Source: an uncultured virus (IMG/VR IMGVR_UViG_3300037467_002622)
Taxonomy: Duplodnaviria > Heunggongvirae > Uroviricota > Caudoviricetes
Strand: one strand, 5' to 3'
DNA: 20,000 bases
Virus record (IMG/VR): IMGVR_UViG_3300037467_002622
This document shows, piece by piece, positions 1,916 through 16,404 of this stretch (position 1 is its first letter; each line of letters starts with the position of its first letter). Made by a program: the position numbers and the translations under genes. The notes beneath the pieces were generated by a model. That model was not told where the DNA came from. It saw only the letters and a program-made list of their open reading frames with translations, and did no database searches.

Positions 1916-2281
1916 ATGAGCGTGGACTTCAGCGTCGAGAGCACCACCTTCGACCACGACCCCGTCTGGGAGGCCGCGCCCAGCATGAACCTGGCGAACG
2001 GCAACGCGGGCTCGCTCCTGGAGGTGCTCGGTTTCCCGACCGACCCGTGGAACCTGCCGGAGGACTTCGAGTTCCCGACGGGCCACGACATGCTCGGCCG
2101 GGTGCTGCTCGCCCTCGGTGTCGCGCCGAAGGACGAGGGGATGGACTGGGTGCCGGACGCGGAGAACCCGCGCTGGCAGGGCAACCTGCGCCGGTCCGGC
2201 TACACCCAGGACAAGCTCAGCGAGATGCACGCGCTCGCGGAGTACGCGATCGCCCACGACCGCCGGATCACCTGGGGCTGA
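1916..2281 (+). CDS. Hypothetical protein (121 aa)
   Basis: ATG follows the extended RBS; strong codon bias; terminator follows. Confidence 0.85.
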   Translation: MSVDFSVESTTFDHDPVWEAAPSMNLANGNAGSLLEVLGFPTDPWNLPEDFEFPTGHDMLGRVLLALGVAPKDEGMDWVPDAENPRWQGNLRRSGYTQDKLSEMHALAEYAIAHDRRITWG

Positions 2282-2336: not shown

Positions 2337-2552
2337 ATGATCGCCATCAACATCATCTTCGACGGCCCGCCCGGACCGGATGGTCCGCGTTTCGTCGAGG
2401 TCGAGGACGACCAGGGCAACAGCATCCGGATCGGCGACTGGGCCGAGTACCAGCCCGAGGGCTACGAGCACGAGGGGTTCTGGAAGCTCCGGATCTCCCT
2501 GGCCGAGCTGAAGGCGCTGGACGCTACCACCGAATTGCCCGAGGAGTGCTGA
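2337..2552 (+). CDS. Small phage hypothetical protein (IIFDGPPGP..RFVEVED type, 71 aa)
   Basis: RBS AAAGGA upstream; TGATG coupling to the next gene. Confidence 0.8.
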   Translation: MIAINIIFDGPPGPDGPRFVEVEDDQGNSIRIGDWAEYQPEGYEHEGFWKLRISLAELKALDATTELPEEC

Positions 2553-10332: not shown

Positions 10333-11019
10333 ATGAAGCACTTCTACGACCTGGAGTTCCTGGAGAACGGCCACACCATCGAGCTGATCTCCATCGGCAT
10401 CGTCTCCGACGACGGCAGCGAGTACTACGCGGTCAACTCCGACATCCAGACCGACAAGGATCTGCACGAGCGGATCTCCGAGCACGACTTCCTGGCCAAG
10501 GAGGTGATCAAGCACCTCCCGCTGGTCGACGACCACAAGGTGGCCGAGCAGCTGAAGGCGGCGGCCATGAGCAAGCGCACTCCGTACTTCGAGCCGTCGA
10601 GCAGGCAGTACACCGATGACGCGACCCGGCTGGACTGGGAGCTGGACATGACCGACATCGACGTCAAGCCGAAGTGGGTCATCGCCAACGAGGTGCAGAA
10701 GTACTTCCTCAACCGGCTCGACCACGGCATCCATGACCCGGAGATGGACGACGAGGGCGAGGTCGAGCTGTGGGCGAACTACGGCGCCTACGACCACGTG
10801 GGCTTGATGCAGCTCTGGGGCCCGATGATCAAGCGGCCGAAGAACCTGCCGATGTTCACCCACGACCTTCAGCACTTCGCACACGAGATCGGCTTCTCGC
10901 GTGCCGACTTCCCGGAGCAGGAGGCGGCCAAGCACGACGCGCTGGCCGACGCCCGGCACAACCAGCTCATCTGGTCGTTCCTGGACGCCCAGCGGCGCCG
11001 TCAGGAGGTCGGCGTCTGA
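10333..11019 (+). CDS. DEDDh 3'-5' exoribonuclease, RNase AS (Rv2179c/DUF5051)-like (228 aa)
   Basis: FYDLEFLENG.TIELISIGIV.DDG.EYYAV; LWANYGAYDHV.LMQLWG.M; HDALADAR. Confidence 0.92.
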   Translation: MKHFYDLEFLENGHTIELISIGIVSDDGSEYYAVNSDIQTDKDLHERISEHDFLAKEVIKHLPLVDDHKVAEQLKAAAMSKRTPYFEPSSRQYTDDATRLDWELDMTDIDVKPKWVIANEVQKYFLNRLDHGIHDPEMDDEGEVELWANYGAYDHVGLMQLWGPMIKRPKNLPMFTHDLQHFAHEIGFSRADFPEQEAAKHDALADARHNQLIWSFLDAQRRRQEVGV

Positions 11020-11336
11020 TGGCCTACCCGTTCCGCGAGGACTGGGTCAGGAAGGCCCTGGAGGAGAAGGACACCCTCCCGGTCTCGCACGCGGTCGCGC
11101 TCGGGTCGATCGCCTGGCACGCCTACGTGGCGACCGGACGCCAGTGCACGCTGGAGCGCGCCGCCGAAGCGGCGGAGATCGCCTACGAGGTCTTCCGCGA
11201 CGAGAAGGTCACGGTGCTCAGCTACCTCCAGATGATCGAGTACACCGAGGCGCTGATCGAAGAGCACTTGCGCAATACTGCCCATTCGGGTAGTGTGGAA
11301 CAGACAGGCGGGGAGCAAGACCCCGCATCCTCGTAA
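11019..11336 (+). CDS. Hypothetical protein (105 aa)
   Basis: TGATG coupling; the 3' end overlaps a promoter/operator. Confidence 0.7.
   Translation: MAYPFREDWVRKALEEKDTLPVSHAVALGSIAWHAYVATGRQCTLERAAEAAEIAYEVFRDEKVTVLSYLQMIEYTEALIEEHLRNTAHSGSVEQTGGEQDPASS
11268..11296 (+). promoter_or_regulatory. SigA-type promoter with operator variant CTGCCCATTCGGGTAG (11278-11293), likely driving the RNA cluster
   Basis: -35 TTGCGC, 17-bp spacer, -10 TAGTGT. CCGCACTGGAGG at 11393-11404. Confidence 0.72.
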
Positions 11337-11412
11337 CGGATCGGGGGCCCGCGCCGACTTCGGAGCAGGCCCCCGGCCACGAGACCACTTCACCGCACTG
11401 GAGGTGACCCCC

Positions 11413-11511
11413 ATGGGGTTCAAGATCAACGTCAAGACCGACGCCGAGGCCCAGGAAGAGCTGAACGAGATGCTGGGTAAGTGGCGGGACGACTGCCGCA
11501 AGGGAACGTAA
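11413..11511 (+). CDS. Micro-protein (32 aa, MGFKINVKTDAEAQEELNEMLGKWRDDCRKGT)
   Basis: ATG lies 8 nt after the extended RBS; GC3-rich codons; stops 9 nt before the tRNA-like element. Confidence 0.6.
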   Translation: MGFKINVKTDAEAQEELNEMLGKWRDDCRKGT

Positions 11512-11520
11512 GATCCAACC

Positions 11521-11623
11521 GGGGATGTAGCTCAGTTCGGAGAGAGCACGGTGTGGGTAACGGCCAGCGCGCAGGCCCAGTCCCTGTGATCCGAGGTCGG
11601 TGGTTCAAATCCACTCATCCCCA
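11521..11623 (+). ncRNA. tRNA-like RNA with expanded (45-nt) anticodon arm
   Basis: Acceptor GGGGATG/CATCCCC-A; D arm GCTC-AGTTCGGAGA-GAGC; AGGTC variable loop; T arm GGTGG-TTCAAAT-CCACT. The anticodon arm (11549-11593) is 28 nt longer than canonical. Confidence 0.8.
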
Positions 11624-11723
11624 CGGTCTCGTAAGTCGGCGGGGATGCCCGTGGTCGGCGCGAGATAGCTGGAAACCGTGAGGTCCGGTGGCCGGGCGGG
11701 GACACCCGTCCGGTCTGGCCTAC

Positions 11724-11795
11724 AGGGGTGTAGCTCAGCGGAAGAGCAGCCGTCTCCAAAGCGGCCGGTCGGGGGTTCGATCCCCTCCACCCCTG
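11724..11795 (+). tRNA. trnW: tRNA-Trp (CCA), 3' CCA not encoded
   Basis: AGGGGTG/CACCCCT-G; D arm GCTC/GAGC; anticodon arm GCCGT-CTCCAAA-GCGGC; T arm GGGGG-TTCGATC-CCCTC. Confidence 0.95.
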
Positions 11796-11938
11796 CGGCG
11801 GATGCCCGCACGCACCCTGGCGTGCAACCGGTTAGTCCCGGTCATGGGGCATCGGGAGGCCAACTCCAGGCACGGCGCGTTGCGATCCACCTGGAGCAAG
11901 ATCCCGGTGCGGCCGAGGGTTTACGGCCCCCGCGTTCT

Positions 11939-12018
11939 GGTGGTGCAGGAAGAGCGGTTCAACCCCGACGGCCTGCTGAAGAGGCCTCTTCAGCCGAGTT
12001 CGAGCCTCGGCACCACCC
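11939..12018 (+). ncRNA. Second atypical tRNA-like RNA (possible pseudo-tRNA)
   Basis: Acceptor GGTGGTG/CACCACC; T arm CCGAG-TTCGAGC-CTCGG; 5-bp stem GGCCT/AGGCC with non-canonical loop GCTGAAG; irregular D region. Confidence 0.62.
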
Positions 12019-12252
12019 CGGACCGAGATGACCAGCTGGACGACGTCGTGGCGCTGATGGGTGATAGGCGTCCCACCAGGCGAAGTCCAGCCCCTGCGGG
12101 GAAGCGGCGCGATCTCGGAGTCACCCAGCGCGCAGGGCGTAGAGCCGGAGGATGTCTCCGGACAGGGCGAGTTGCGGCCTGCGATTGATCACCTGCGCGC
12201 ACCTCTCGGCCGCACCTGGGCGGCCGAAGGAACCACACCGGAGGAGCACTAC

Positions 12253-12564
12253 ATGATCAACTCTTCGTGGCAGAAGTCTGTCCTGAGCGAGCCCAATGGC
12301 GGATCCTGCGTCGAGATCCAGCGAGGTCCGGACGGCGTCCGGGTGCGAGACACCAAGCTGGGCCCGGACAGCCCAGTCCTGTACTTCACCGACCTCGAAT
12401 GGGAGTGCCACCTCCTGGCGGTCAAGGGCGGCCAGCACGACCTTCCCGACAGCGACCGCGTGAGCGTGCTCGCCAACGCGATCAGTGCGCTGTCCGACGT
12501 CGAGATGCTGGAGCTGAGCGCCACCATCAAGACGCGCACGATGGAGCTGCTGCTGCGCGGCTGA
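12253..12564 (+). CDS. DUF397 (BldB/Scr2-like) protein with C-terminal extension (103 aa)
   Basis: WQKS..S...GGSCVEI....GVRVRDTK.....VLYF...EW...L.AVK.G; RBS variant CCACACCGGAGG (12233-12244). Confidence 0.9.
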   Translation: MINSSWQKSVLSEPNGGSCVEIQRGPDGVRVRDTKLGPDSPVLYFTDLEWECHLLAVKGGQHDLPDSDRVSVLANAISALSDVEMLELSATIKTRTMELLLRG

Positions 12565-12677: not shown

Positions 12678-12995
12678 ATGTCCTGGATTCACCACTCTCT
12701 GCTTCACCTGAACATCGACTTCAATCCGCTGCATCACCCGTTCCCCTGGCTCGTCTCAGTCGGCAACGTGACCTCGGTGCTGTTCACCCGGCGAGGCAAG
12801 ATCGCGGGCTGGTGGATTCTCGCGGCCGCGCAGCTGATCTTCATCGCGCACAGCGTCACTACGCCAACCGACACCGGCTTCATCCTGGGCAACCTGACCA
12901 TGCTGGTCGTGGCGCTGGACTCGGTCCGGGACTGGCGGACCCGCAAGAGCGGCCGCCTTCCGCAGCATCTGGAAGAGCCAGTCGCGCCGCGCTGA
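12678..12995 (+). CDS. Small 3-TM membrane protein, PnuC-like (105 aa)
   Basis: Three hydrophobic segments with a RRGKIAGWW...Q.IFI...GF pattern, as in phage PnuC-like proteins. CCGCACCGGAGG at 12661-12672. Confidence 0.68.
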   Translation: MSWIHHSLLHLNIDFNPLHHPFPWLVSVGNVTSVLFTRRGKIAGWWILAAAQLIFIAHSVTTPTDTGFILGNLTMLVVALDSVRDWRTRKSGRLPQHLEEPVAPR

Positions 12996-13006
12996 TCAGC
13001 GACTGC

Positions 13007-13041
13007 TTGCACCCACCCTACCCAATCGGGTAGGGTGGGTG
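13007..13041 (+). promoter_or_regulatory. SigA-type promoter with extended 14-bp-arm palindrome CACCCACCCTACCC-AATC-GGGTAGGGTGGGTG
   Basis: -35 TTGCAC, 18-bp spacer, -10 TAGGGT. CCGCACCGGAGG at 13053-13064. Confidence 0.78.
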
Positions 13042-13069
13042 TATCACATCGACCGCACCGGAGGTCCTC

Positions 13070-13750
13070 ATGGCCGAGAACCCGTACCTCGACTTCTACG
13101 AGCGCCGCCAGCACCACCAGCAGGTGTGCGATCAGGCCCGGAAGCATAGCTTCGACGGCAGCCGCCCCTCGCGTTGGCAGACCTGCCAGTGCAAGGGCAG
13201 CACGGCCTCGGTCGCCGAGCCCACCAAGAAGTTCTCCTGGGCCATCCCGAACGAGAAGGCCTTGACCACGATCGCCGAGCACTCGCCGAACGGCGTGGTG
13301 GAGATCGGCGCGGGGGGCGGCTACTGGACGAAGATGCTGCGCGAGCGTGGCGTGGACGTCATCGCCTACGACCCGGCGCCGCACGTCTCGGACTGGCACG
13401 AGGGGGCGTGGACGGAGGTCCTGCTGGGCGACCACACCGCCGTCATCGGGCACTCGAACCGCACGCTGCTGACCGTCTGGCCGGAGTACGAGGCGACCTG
13501 GTCGCACCAGATGATCGAGCTGTTCGAGGGTGAGAAGGTCGTCTACGTCGGCGAGGGCTGGGGCGGCTGCACCGGCGACGACCGGTTCCACCAGCTGCTC
13601 GGCGGCGTCGGCTGCACCTGCTGGGCCAGCGAAGAGGACTGCACCTGCGACCTGAGCGCGGCGCTCTTCAAGGAAGTCGCCACGGTCGGCATCCCGCAGT
13701 GGGCCGGGATCCACGACTACCTGACCATCTACCAGCGCCTGGAGGCCTGA
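13070..13750 (+). CDS. Class I SAM-dependent methyltransferase-like protein (226 aa)
   Basis: Motif I VVEIGAGGGYW, strand DVIAYD, LLTVWP and VVYVGE..GGCTG. Confidence 0.85.
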   Translation: MAENPYLDFYERRQHHQQVCDQARKHSFDGSRPSRWQTCQCKGSTASVAEPTKKFSWAIPNEKALTTIAEHSPNGVVEIGAGGGYWTKMLRERGVDVIAYDPAPHVSDWHEGAWTEVLLGDHTAVIGHSNRTLLTVWPEYEATWSHQMIELFEGEKVVYVGEGWGGCTGDDRFHQLLGGVGCTCWASEEDCTCDLSAALFKEVATVGIPQWAGIHDYLTIYQRLEA

Positions 13751-16024: not shown

Positions 16025-16404
16025 TGGCCCGCGCGAAGACGGCGGTGCACTTCTTCCGCGACGACGGCTTCATGGTGCGCGGCGTGACCGATCCGTGCGA
16101 GGCCTACCGGCTCGCGCTGGAGGAGTCCGCCGACTCGGCCTGGGACGGCCAGCGCGTCGGCGGCTGGGCCTACGACGCCGGACAGCCAGAAGTCGAAGGC
16201 GAGACGGCGTTCCCGGACACTGAGAAGGGCATCGCGGCGCTGGCAGACGAGGTCTGGGGAATGATCAAGAACGCACGTGTCCGACGCTGCCGGATCGTCC
16301 CGACCGGCCCCGACCACCCGGACGGCTACGCCTGGATGGTCTGGGAGCTGGACGACGATGCCAAGGGGCCGGGGATCTTCACCGCCGTCATGTTCTTCCC
16401 CTAG
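16024..16404 (+). CDS. Hypothetical protein (126 aa)
   Basis: TGATG coupling; codon bias. Confidence 0.75.
   Translation: MARAKTAVHFFRDDGFMVRGVTDPCEAYRLALEESADSAWDGQRVGGWAYDAGQPEVEGETAFPDTEKGIAALADEVWGMIKNARVRRCRIVPTGPDHPDGYAWMVWELDDDAKGPGIFTAVMFFP

What the first reader, a model, noticed from the sequence alone, without database searches (positions are those of the whole stretch)
11624..12227. About 600 nt of densely structured non-coding sequence around tRNA-Trp: array of unknown RNAs or one large ornate RNA
Seen: in an otherwise wall-to-wall coding window this stretch has no RBS-led, codon-biased ORF, and stems tile it end to end. There is a hairpin at 11690-11715. A three-way junction is closed by GATGCCC/GGGCATC (11801-11853) and encloses GCACGC/GCGTGC and ACCGG/CCGGT. 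CTCCAGG/CCTGGAG spans 11864-11896. CCGAGAT/ATCTCGG (12023-12118) encloses GCTGGAC/GTCCAGC and CTGATGGG/CCCACCAG. GCGCGCAGG/CCTGCGCGC (12128-12200) encloses two hairpins, and a final hairpin lies at 12206-12227. Several units are roughly tRNA-sized and closed by 7-9 bp stems. Established: large phage ncRNAs such as GOLLD and ROOL often lie next to tRNAs. Inference: a polycistronic small-RNA operon punctuated by tRNA-like processing signals and driven from the operator-bearing promoter at 11268. High GC content inflates chance pairing.
Basis: partly seen in the sequence, partly recalled or inferred. Interest (0 to 1): 0.75.

Follow-up and report, generated by a model that had tools for sequence, protein, structure and literature searches.

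The report
Phage tRNA operon carrying unknown structured RNAs
This non-coding stretch of a soil actinomycete phage is a tRNA operon in which a real tRNA-Trp and anticodon-less tRNA look-alikes alternate with conserved, folded RNAs of no known family, much like the two unexplained stable RNAs of phage T4.

Summary
The window is a 68% GC actinophage-like sequence with no close sequenced relative.

From a repeated phage promoter at 11268, the + strand reads:
- a 32-aa ORF;
- a tRNA-Pro(GGG)-like gene with a 23-nt insert;
- a folded spacer (11624-11723);
- tRNA-Trp (11724-11795);
- a 137-nt four-way-junction RNA (11796-11938);
- an anticodon-less tRNA-like unit (11939-12018);
- two more folded units (12019-12118, 12125-12200);
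- a hairpin (12206-12227);
- a DUF397 gene.

The four-way-junction RNA recurs in three other phage or metagenome contigs, each time starting one base after a tRNA(-like) discriminator. It is 87% identical to a relative whose neighbouring gene is 52% identical. Eight of its base pairs changed on both sides.

The open frame across it is not a gene: 3 of 4 homologs carry in-frame stops. The downstream units are 93% identical to a closer relative, against about 77-83% in genes, with compensatory changes and no third-codon bias.

A metatranscriptome contig (depth 162) matches 12035-12197 exactly. Rfam finds only tRNAs.

Thermodynamic stability alone does not support the claim (z -0.9 for the whole stretch). 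Function and processing are inferred, not shown.

The parts
11268..11301 (+). Promoter with palindromic operator-like core: CTTGCGC, then N.. CCCATTCGGGTAGTGT
   Evidence: Member of a repeated motif (TTGnnn, 15-19 nt, GGTAGnnT). There are 6 matches in the window (953, 1848, 3290, 11268, 13007, 14852) and 22 in G001, most followed by the leader CCGCACCGGAGG. The generic sigma-70 scan found none.
11414..11511 (+). Small ORF (32 aa, MGFKINV...) behind the canonical leader and RBS
   Evidence: L052 has the same start, MGFKI.... It is first in the transcription unit.
11521..11623 (+). tRNA-Pro(GGG)-like gene with a 23-nt insert just 3' of the anticodon; the insert pairs with the anticodon
   Evidence: Rfam tRNA 48.5 bits, with 39 nt in place of 11 in the anticodon arm. 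ARAGORN finds it only with introns allowed (structure). In the fold, UGGGU pairs with GCCCA.
11624..11723 (+). Folded spacer (RNA-0): closing helix CGGTCTCG/CGAGAT, plus the 3' hairpin at 11690-11715
   Evidence: z -3.0. Homologous to L052 5291-5409 and L001 2801-2921, and starts CGGTCTCG right after the upstream tRNA in all three. The 3' hairpin has 3 double-sided changes between L052 and L001.
11724..11795 (+). tRNA-Trp (CCA); no encoded CCA end
   Evidence: ARAGORN; Rfam 62.8 bits.
11796..11938 (+). Four-way-junction RNA. The conserved core is 11797-11933. Helices: P0 GCGG/CCGC; P1 domain with hairpins GCACGC/GCGTGC and ACCGG/CCGGT; P4 GCATCGGGA/TCCCGGTGC; P2 CTCCAGG/CCTGGAG; P3 GGCCG/CGGCC.
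   Evidence: Homologs in L001/G001 (179 bits), L025 (168 bits) and L052 (38.6 bits with model R1, 77.7 with R2). On the 4-sequence alignment, 8 pairs changed on both sides and 99.3% of cells are paired. Slid controls give 0 double changes and about 40% paired. It is 87% identical to L001, against 76.7% for tRNA-Trp and 51.6% for the neighbouring gene.
11939..12018 (+). Anticodon-less tRNA-like unit: acceptor GGTGGTG/CACCACC, T arm CCGAG-TTCGAGC-CTCGG, and a middle arm capped by tetraloop GGCC
   Evidence: It is 1 of only 3 hits in the window for a T arm plus 7/7 acceptor pairing; 100 Markov shuffles gave 0. It folds as a cloverleaf, z -1.9 here and -3.0 in L052. Double changes occur at 11979/11990 (L052 and X5), 11977/11992 and 11947/11974 (X5). 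The Rfam tRNA model does not reach E 10.
12019..12118 (+). Long irregular hairpin unit closed by CCGAGAT/ATCTCGG (12023-12118)
   Evidence: 6 substitutions in 96 nt against L052. One is a double change (12053/12069) and two are one-sided changes that keep pairing. z -1.4 here, -2.4 in L052. The RNA-library contig covers it from 12035.
12125..12200 (+). Three-way unit closed by GCGCGCAGG/CCTGCGCGC
   Evidence: 2 double changes in the closing helix and 1 in the inner hairpin against L052. z -2.9 together with the next hairpin. Absent from the X5 variant. Covered by the RNA-library contig up to 12197.
12206..12227 (+). Hairpin TCGGCCGC-ACCTGG-GCGGCCGA, 13 nt before the RBS of the next gene
   Evidence: The stem sequence differs but still pairs in L052 and in the 37 nt that X5 has here. 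The loop core CACCTGG is kept in both.
12253..12564 (+). DUF397 protein gene with RBS GGAGGAG; marks the downstream limit of the RNA stretch
   Evidence: Pfam PF04149, E 6.9e-13. Same gene in L052.

Best explanation
The stretch is the RNA-gene part of a phage tRNA operon. One transcript from the promoter at 11268 carries, in alternation, tRNA-shaped units and folded non-tRNA RNAs.

- The tRNA-shaped units are a masked-anticodon tRNA-Pro-like gene, a true tRNA-Trp and an anticodon-less tRNA-like unit.
- The non-tRNA RNAs are a 100-nt spacer RNA, a 137-nt four-way-junction RNA, and a roughly 180-nt two-domain RNA.
- Each non-tRNA unit begins one base after a tRNA(-like) discriminator.
- The four-way-junction RNA ends 5 nt before the next tRNA-like unit.

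The likely mechanism is that host tRNA-maturation enzymes cut the cargo RNAs out as discrete, stable molecules. RNase P would cut at the 5' side of each tRNA shape. RNase Z or a related 3' activity would cut after each discriminator. The anticodon-less tRNA shapes would be kept as cutting handles rather than as decoders.

Shown here: conservation, base-pair covariation on the + strand, the tRNA-like anatomy, the promoter family, and one abundant RNA-library contig. Inferred: co-transcription, the cutting enzymes, the exact ends, and any function in trans. The released RNAs most likely act as protein-binding or decoy RNAs during infection, as is suspected but unproven for T4 RNAC and RNAD.
For: 1. 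Not coding.
- 3 of 4 homologs of the four-way-junction RNA have in-frame stops: TAA in L001 and L025, TGA in L052.
- Pfam and PHROGs give 0 families for 11802-12188.
- Against L052, 9 of 19 substitutions in 11941-12150 fall on third codon positions. In the tRNA-like part, 2 of 8 do.
- X5 carries a +1 insertion at 12022 and a -1 deletion at 12062.

2. Selection on structure.
- 8 of 39 pairs changed on both sides, against 0 in all six slid controls.
- 6 of 58 pairs changed on both sides in 12018-12235.
- 8 of 35 pairs in the spacer, on a poor alignment of the window row.
- G-U pairs occur in 5 cells of alignment A3. They would be C-A mismatches on the other strand, so the + strand is the RNA.

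3. Conservation above that of genes.
- The four-way-junction RNA matches L001 at 120 of 138 positions. tRNA-Trp matches at 56 of 73 and the neighbouring gene at 392 of 759.
- Positions 11938-12118 have 14 substitutions in 181 nt against L052, where genes are 77-83% identical.

4. Junction rule. In 4 of 4 contigs the four-way-junction RNA starts CGGCGG one base after a discriminator. The upstream unit is tRNA-Trp in the window and L001, and a different tRNA-like unit in each of L025 and L052. The spacer starts the same way in 3 of 3 contigs, and the unit at 12019 in 2 of 2.

5. Operon. G001 has a promoter, three tRNAs, a tRNA-like unit, the four-way-junction RNA, a terminator and then the next promoter. 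No protein gene lies between them.

6. Expression. Run X4 is an RNA library. It holds a 163-nt contig at depth 162 that is identical to 12035-12197. From the rest of the 993-nt stretch it holds only a foreign tRNA-Trp.

7. Precedent. In T4, rnaD lies 1 nt after tRNA-Arg and rnaC 6 nt after rnaD.
Against: - Stability gives little support: z -0.9 for the whole stretch and -1.6 for the four-way-junction RNA in the window.
- Only 4 sequences carry the four-way-junction RNA, and only 2 (plus the difference table for X5) carry the downstream units. Alignment A3 was fitted to the model, which favours the structure.
- Contigs cannot show RNA ends, strand or level, and DNA can be present in an RNA library. 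X4 shows no cover of the four-way-junction RNA or the tRNA-like unit.
- The RNA contig starts at 12035, not at 12019 as the model predicts.
- The tRNA-like unit does not reach E 10 with the Rfam tRNA model.
- The high W-L052 identity in 11924-12118 could partly reflect a recent exchange of that segment.
- There is GC3-like periodicity at 11800-12040.
- L001 and L025 have no tRNA-like unit after the four-way-junction RNA, so a 3' handle is not universal.
Confidence: 0.55

Rival explanations
1. The folded units are only structured spacers of the tRNA precursor. They would serve as nuclease entry sites or protective hairpins (RNase III or RNase E sites, 3' stabilisers) and have no life of their own after processing.
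For: They lie between tRNA genes. The units are long irregular hairpins of the kind RNase III cuts. The set of units differs between relatives. The last hairpin sits just before the next gene's RBS.
Against: Loop and junction sequences are conserved, not just the stems. GGCGCGTTGCGA, AGGGTTTA and GGGAGGCCAAC are identical in 3 of 4 homologs, while the flanking stems covary. The four-way-junction RNA is more conserved than the tRNA it follows. A contig at depth 162 in an RNA library suggests one unit accumulates.
Confidence: 0.2
2. The 137-nt RNA abutting the tRNA is a self-cleaving ribozyme of a new class. It would cut at its own 5' end and so make the tRNA 3' end, as proposed for the HDV-like theta ribozymes of gut phages.
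For: It starts one base after the discriminator in 4 of 4 contigs, behind three different tRNA(-like) units. Its junction sequences are strongly conserved. Theta ribozymes lie within 5 nt of phage tRNAs and are proposed to process tRNA 3' trailers (PMC10879173, passages read).
Against: No ribozyme family of Rfam reaches E 10. I could not fit the HDV-type nested double pseudoknot by inspection. The spacer and the 12019 unit follow the same junction rule with unrelated sequences, which points to a shared host enzyme rather than to three ribozymes.
Confidence: 0.08
3. Units 12019-12227 are a cis-acting leader (attenuator or riboswitch-like) of the DUF397 gene rather than separate RNAs.
For: They lie directly upstream of the gene in the window and in L052. 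The last hairpin ends 13 nt before the RBS and keeps its loop CACCTGG in the window, L052 and X5.
Against: X5 lacks the 12128-12200 unit but keeps the gene start. The RNA-library contig stops at 12197 and does not run into the gene. No known leader family matches.
Confidence: 0.1
4. One large ornate RNA of about 600 nt, of the GOLLD/ROOL kind.
For: The stretch is a continuous run of structure next to tRNAs.
Against: Rfam finds no GOLLD or ROOL match. The units occur independently in relatives. A true tRNA and a tRNA-like unit interrupt the run. I found no supported long-range helix joining the units.
Confidence: 0.04
5. A small protein gene: ORF 11688..12188, or a sub-ORF starting at GTG 11940.
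For: The frame is open in the window and shows GC3-like periodicity of 0.80-0.90 over 11800-12040.
Against: 3 of 4 homologs have in-frame stops. There is no RBS. No third-position bias is seen: 9 of 19 against L052, and 3 of the first 11 listed X5 changes. X5 has a frameshifting indel pair. Pfam and PHROGs give 0 hits. The ORF also overlaps tRNA-Trp.
Confidence: 0.02

Closest known systems
Phage T4 stable RNAs RNAC (species 1, 139 nt) and RNAD (species 2, 119 nt)
   Same: Both are non-tRNA RNAs of 119-139 nt lying directly 3' of the last tRNA of a phage tRNA cluster. In T4 the gaps are 1 nt and 6 nt. T4 rnaC folds with a T arm and a closing helix, so it is tRNA-like with expansions. Their function is still unknown (PMC9697503, passages read).
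   Different: There is no sequence or structure homology: model R2 scores 3.2 bits at most on the T4 region with filters off. The host phylum and GC content differ. Here an anticodon-less tRNA-like unit also follows the cargo RNA.
HDV-like theta ribozymes next to phage tRNAs (PMC10879173)
   Same: Both are structured RNAs abutting the 3' end of phage tRNAs, within 5 nt.
   Different: Rfam ribozyme models give no match. I found no HDV-type fold by inspection. The RNA here is about twice as long and occurs in high-GC soil phages rather than gut phages.
tRNA-like processing handles: MALAT1 with mascRNA, and the tRNA-miRNA transcripts of murine gammaherpesvirus 68 (recalled; PMC8457004 and PMC4337559 were seen only in the search listing)
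   Same: A tRNA shape that does not decode is used so that RNase P or RNase Z can define the end of a neighbouring non-tRNA RNA.
   Different: Those systems are eukaryotic and use RNA polymerase II or III. Processing has not been shown here.
GOLLD and ROOL large phage RNAs
   Same: They are phage-borne, lie next to tRNAs and have unknown function.
   Different: No covariance-model match. The RNAs here are modular units of 80-180 nt, not a single 500-800-nt RNA.

Membership tests
tRNA (Rfam RF00005) | Covariance-model score above the gathering threshold (29 bits) | tested here: met
   11724-11795 scores 62.8 bits and 11521-11623 scores 48.5 bits, the latter with a 39-nt anticodon-arm segment in place of 11.
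tRNA (applied to the unit at 11939-12018) | Covariance-model score, and a 7-nt anticodon loop | tested here: not met
   No tRNA hit at E up to 10 in a 236-nt search. The middle arm ends in a tetraloop. The would-be anticodon base 11979 covaries with 11990.
tRNA-like element (applied to the unit at 11939-12018) | 7-bp acceptor helix stacked on a 5-bp T stem, with a TTCRANN loop and a G53-C61 pair | tested here: met
   7 of 7 acceptor pairs and T arm CCGAG-TTCGAGC-CTCGG. Only 3 such sites occur in the 20 kb, and none in 100 shuffles.
GOLLD / ROOL | Match to the Rfam covariance models | tested here: not met
   Searches list neither family at E up to 10.
HDV-like / theta ribozyme | Lies within 5 nt of a tRNA 3' end | tested here: met
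   The RNA starts one base after the discriminator in 4 of 4 contigs.
HDV-like / theta ribozyme | Nested double pseudoknot (P1, P1.1, P2, P3, P4) and a match to the family model | tested here: not met
   No Rfam ribozyme hit. By inspection I found no P1.1 partner in the candidate L3 loop and no free 5' strand for P2. I did not run a descriptor search.
HDV-like / theta ribozyme | Self-cleavage | not testable with these tools
   Needs an in-vitro transcript.
T4 RNAC / RNAD | Position directly 3' of the last tRNA of a phage tRNA cluster | tested here: met
   T4 layout.
T4 RNAC / RNAD | Sequence or structure homology | tested here: not met
   Model R2 on the T4 tRNA region, filters off: best score 3.2 bits.
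tmRNA | ARAGORN tmRNA call with a tag peptide | tested here: not met
   One search finds none in the window.
Protein-coding gene | Frame kept open in relatives, third-position bias of changes, and an RBS | tested here: not met

The most novel reading that the evidence does not exclude
Phages of soil actinomycetes use tRNA shapes that no longer decode as cutting handles. Host RNase P and RNase Z would then excise non-tRNA cargo RNAs from a tRNA operon. That would be a bacterial-virus counterpart of MALAT1/mascRNA and the herpesvirus tRNA-miRNA transcripts. The best-conserved cargo, the 137-nt four-way-junction RNA, would be a new functional RNA class, possibly catalytic or a decoy for a host tRNA-directed enzyme.
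Probability: 0.3. Interest if true: 0.8.

Novelty: new variant of a known kind. Interest (0 to 1): 0.62.

Why it matters
Non-tRNA stable RNAs inside phage tRNA operons have been known from T4 since the 1970s (recalled) and still have no assigned function (PMC9697503). This locus gives an independent, high-GC example with three useful properties.

- The cargo RNA is under stronger constraint than the tRNA beside it.
- It has moved between different tRNA(-like) partners while keeping the same one-base junction.
- Decoding-dead tRNA shapes are retained next to it.

Together these make the "tRNA shape as processing handle" idea testable in a bacterial virus. They also add at least one well-supported candidate family to the list of unexplained structured RNAs. 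The comparative set is still small, at 4 sequences.

Tried and rejected
**Searches for known families**
- Rfam at gathering and at E up to 10 found only tRNAs.

**Searches for relatives among sequenced phages**
- blastn of the region against 50,697 phage records found only tRNA matches.
- tblastn with two window proteins found no close sequenced relative.

**Pattern scans of viral contigs**
- Searches found only G001. The 13 other loci were a protein gene or chance.
- One search found only the L052 contig. The other 10 hits were coding chance matches.
- One search was wasted. My second gap range (22-34) excluded the true spacing of 19, so it could not find even the known members. Its 3 hits were coding.

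**Other collections**
- Metagenome scan: 1 real homolog (L025) among 9 loci.
- Genome-contig scans: 0 hits, then 12 chance hits that all score under 16 bits.
- Model R2 on 151 sampled genomes of the class of G002: 0 matches, but only 20 candidates per genome were scored, so this shows little.
- No second copy in the window, G001, L025 or L052-L054.

**Other checks**
- Gordonia phage Pupper and Streptomyces phage Frankenweenie loci gave no match.
- I tried K-turn, T-loop and HDV-type readings of the junctions by eye and dropped them.
- The 15-nt complementarity between 11903-11917 and 12205-12219 is not kept in L001, so I treat it as chance.
- The search of earlier findings returned nothing.
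- X4 gave no cover of 11812-12015.

I did not run a protein homology search on the 82-aa frame.
Full report
**Context.** The window is 67.9% GC and no whole genome is held for it. Its ORFs hit phage families: a NUDIX hydrolase, an Rv2179c-like or "RNase H" exonuclease at 10333-11019, and a DUF397 protein at 12253-12564. No sequenced phage is close.

Three related contigs were found.
- G001/L001 is a 149.7-kb complete viral contig. It is syntenic with the window, with proteins 37-72% identical.
- L052 lies in a 155-kb viral contig and is closer. Its exonuclease is 72% identical at the protein level, and its genes are 77-83% identical at the DNA level.
- L025 is a 12.7-kb metagenome contig.

**Observation.** Stability alone does not single the region out.
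- 11797-12252 folds at z -0.90 on both strands.
- Sliding 120-nt windows between 11800 and 12120 give z -0.7 to +1.6.
- Single units do somewhat better: -3.0 for 11625-11723, -1.6 for 11797-11935, -1.9 for 11939-12020, -1.4 for 12023-12118 and -2.9 for 12125-12230.

The case has to rest on comparison with relatives.

**Is it coding?** ORF 11688..12188 shows GC3-like periodicity of 0.80-0.90 over 11800-12040. It is nevertheless not a gene.
- It overlaps tRNA-Trp and has no RBS.
- Pfam and PHROGs give no hit.
- The frame carries TAA in L001 and L025 and TGA in L052, so 3 of 4 homologs are closed.
- Against L052, 9 of 19 substitutions in 11941-12150 are at third positions. In the tRNA-like part, 2 of 8 are.
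- The X5 variant has a +1 insertion at 12022 and a -1 deletion at 12062. Of its first 11 listed changes, 3 are at third positions.
- 11938-12118 has 14 substitutions in 181 nt, about 92% identity. That is well above the 77-83% of the genes around it. Protein constraint would not produce this pattern.

**The four-way-junction RNA (11796-11938).** It directly follows tRNA-Trp. The same about 137 nt follow tRNA-Trp in L001, with no indel.

A covariance model built from these two sequences (R1) scores as follows:

| Sequence | Bits |
|---|---|
| Window | 182 |
| L001 | 179 |
| L025 | 168 |
| L052 (reduced form: one hairpin replaces the two 5' hairpins) | 38.6 |
| L052 with the 4-sequence model R2 | 77.7 |

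The minimum-energy fold is the same in the window and L001. It has:
- a terminal helix P0;
- a 5' domain with two hairpins;
- a long arm, P4 then P2, with a conserved internal loop (GGCCAA opposite CAAGA) and an apical loop holding GGCGCGTTGCGA;
- a hairpin P3.

On the 4-sequence alignment, 99.3% of cells pair and 8 of 39 pairs changed on both sides (P2 4, P4 3, hairpin P1a 1). Partners slid by 1-3 columns give 0 double changes and 37-44% pairing. None of 500 shuffles reaches the observed values. The alignment was fitted to the model, which favours it. However, the four P2 swaps are already visible in the ungapped pairwise comparison.

It loses 3 of its 7 pairs in L052, whereas P4 keeps all pairs through 3 double changes. 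G-U pairs in 5 cells place the RNA on the + strand.

Conservation is striking. The window matches L001 at 120 of 138 positions. tRNA-Trp matches at 56 of 73, and the neighbouring exonuclease gene at 392 of 759 aligned columns.

**tRNA shapes that do not decode.**
- *Motif scan.* I scanned for a T arm (5 pairs, TTCRANN loop, G53-C61) followed by a 7/7 acceptor pairing. Only three sites turned up in the 20 kb: 11521, 11724 and 11939. One hundred Markov shuffles gave none.
- *Unit 11939-12017.* It folds as a cloverleaf whose middle arm ends in a GGCC tetraloop. L052 and X5 change 11979 and 11990 together. X5 also changes 11977/11992 and 11947/11974 together. Selection is therefore on pairing, including at the base that would be the middle of a GAA anticodon. 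The Rfam tRNA model does not reach E 10 for this unit.
- *Gene 11521-11623.* It scores as a tRNA (48.5 bits). It carries 23 extra nt just 3' of a GGG anticodon, and these pair with the anticodon.
- *L025.* The unit before the four-way-junction RNA has a 7-bp stem and a TGCA tetraloop where the anticodon loop should be.
- *L052.* The unit before it is a 116-nt tRNA shape.

**Junction rule.** In 4 of 4 contigs the four-way-junction RNA starts CGGCGG one base after a discriminator, behind three different tRNA(-like) units. The spacer 11624-11723 starts CGGTCTCG in the same way in 3 of 3 contigs (window, L052, L001). The unit at 12019 starts CGG or CGA in 2 of 2. In the window and L052, the four-way-junction RNA ends 4-5 nt before the next tRNA-like unit.

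**Downstream units.** Against L052, 6 of 58 predicted pairs in 12018-12235 changed on both sides. These comprise 1 in the long hairpin, 2 in the GCGCGCAGG/CCTGCGCGC helix, 1 in its inner hairpin and 2 in the last hairpin.

X5 replaces 12119-12231 with 37 nt. These again form an 8-bp hairpin with the loop core CACCTGG. The 12128-12200 unit is therefore dispensable.

In the RNA library X4, a 163-nt contig at depth 162 equals 12035-12197 with no difference. The only other part of the 993-nt stretch covered there is a tRNA-Trp with 12 differences, which comes from another organism. This fits one abundant, stable RNA. Contigs cannot give ends or strand, and DNA carry-over was not excluded.

**Operon.** The promoter at 11268 belongs to a family: TTGnnn, a spacer with the palindrome CTACCCGATCGGGTAG, and TAGnnT. 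There are 6 copies in the window and 22 pattern matches in G001, usually followed by the leader CCGCACCGGAGG. The next copy in the window is at 13007.

In G001 one such promoter is followed by three tRNAs, a tRNA-like unit, the four-way-junction RNA and a terminator. The next promoter follows, with no protein gene in between.

**Mechanism.** The best reading is a tRNA-punctuated precursor. Host RNase P would cut 5' of each tRNA shape, and RNase Z or a related activity would cut after each discriminator. Together these would release the cargo RNAs, with the non-decoding tRNA shapes retained as handles. This is inference from anatomy. The rivals are listed separately.

**Comparison with known systems.**
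- *T4.* It has the same layout, with tRNA-Arg, rnaD and rnaC separated by 1 nt and 6 nt. rnaC folds with a T arm. The function of both is still called unknown (PMC9697503, passages). There is no homology: model R2 scores 3.2 bits at most.
- *Theta ribozymes.* They abut phage tRNAs within 5 nt (PMC10879173, passages), but no ribozyme model or fold fits here.
- *GOLLD, ROOL and tmRNA.* None match.

**Limits.** There are four sequences for the main RNA and two for the rest. Supplements of the cited papers were not opened.

Noticed in passing
window 953, 1848, 3290, 11268, 13007, 14852 (+ strand): A repeated promoter motif, TTGnnn then CTACCCGATCGGGTAG(t/g)(g/a)T, with a perfect palindrome overlapping the -10. 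It is usually followed by the leader CCGCACCGGAGG. G001 has 22 pattern matches. It looks like a phage-wide promoter plus operator system.
   Followed up: partly
window 11521-11623: A tRNA-Pro(GGG)-like gene with a 23-nt insert at the canonical intron position. The insert pairs with the anticodon. Bacteria have no known enzyme to remove such a short insert. L025 (about 1994-2109, minus strand) and G001 (16101-16207, minus strand) carry other long tRNA shapes of 107-116 nt.
   Followed up: partly
window 11340-11412: The 5' leader of the operon is identical to L052 over about 70 nt, in a background that is 77-83% identical. It includes a strong hairpin; the 11280-11399 window has z -5.2.
   Followed up: no
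window 10333-11019: An Rv2179c-like 3'-5' exoribonuclease gene lies just upstream of the RNA operon in the window, L052 and G001. It could take part in trimming these RNAs, but the same gene is common in actinophages that lack them.
   Followed up: no
L052 5483-5659: Relative to the window, L052 has about 385 extra nt after tRNA-Trp. They comprise a folded stretch, tRNA-Lys and a 116-nt tRNA-like unit, and come before its reduced four-way-junction RNA. The units evidently shuffle between operons.
   Followed up: partly
window 11800-12040: There is GC3-like periodicity (0.80-0.90 at one phase) in sequence that relatives show is not coding. It could be a relic or chance. It would mislead gene callers.
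   Followed up: yes
window 11903-11917 and 12205-12219: A 15-nt, 93% complementary pair links the 3' part of the four-way-junction RNA to the last hairpin. It is not kept in L001, so it is probably chance.
   Followed up: partly
window 12960-13119: Strongly negative folding z (-4.4 to -5.3) around the promoter at 13007, between two genes.
   Followed up: no
L069 (T4) 2409-2547, minus strand: T4 rnaC folds (z -4.6) into a closing helix, two arms and a canonical T arm (CCGGG-UUCGAAU-CCCGG). It is itself an expanded tRNA shape.
   Followed up: partly
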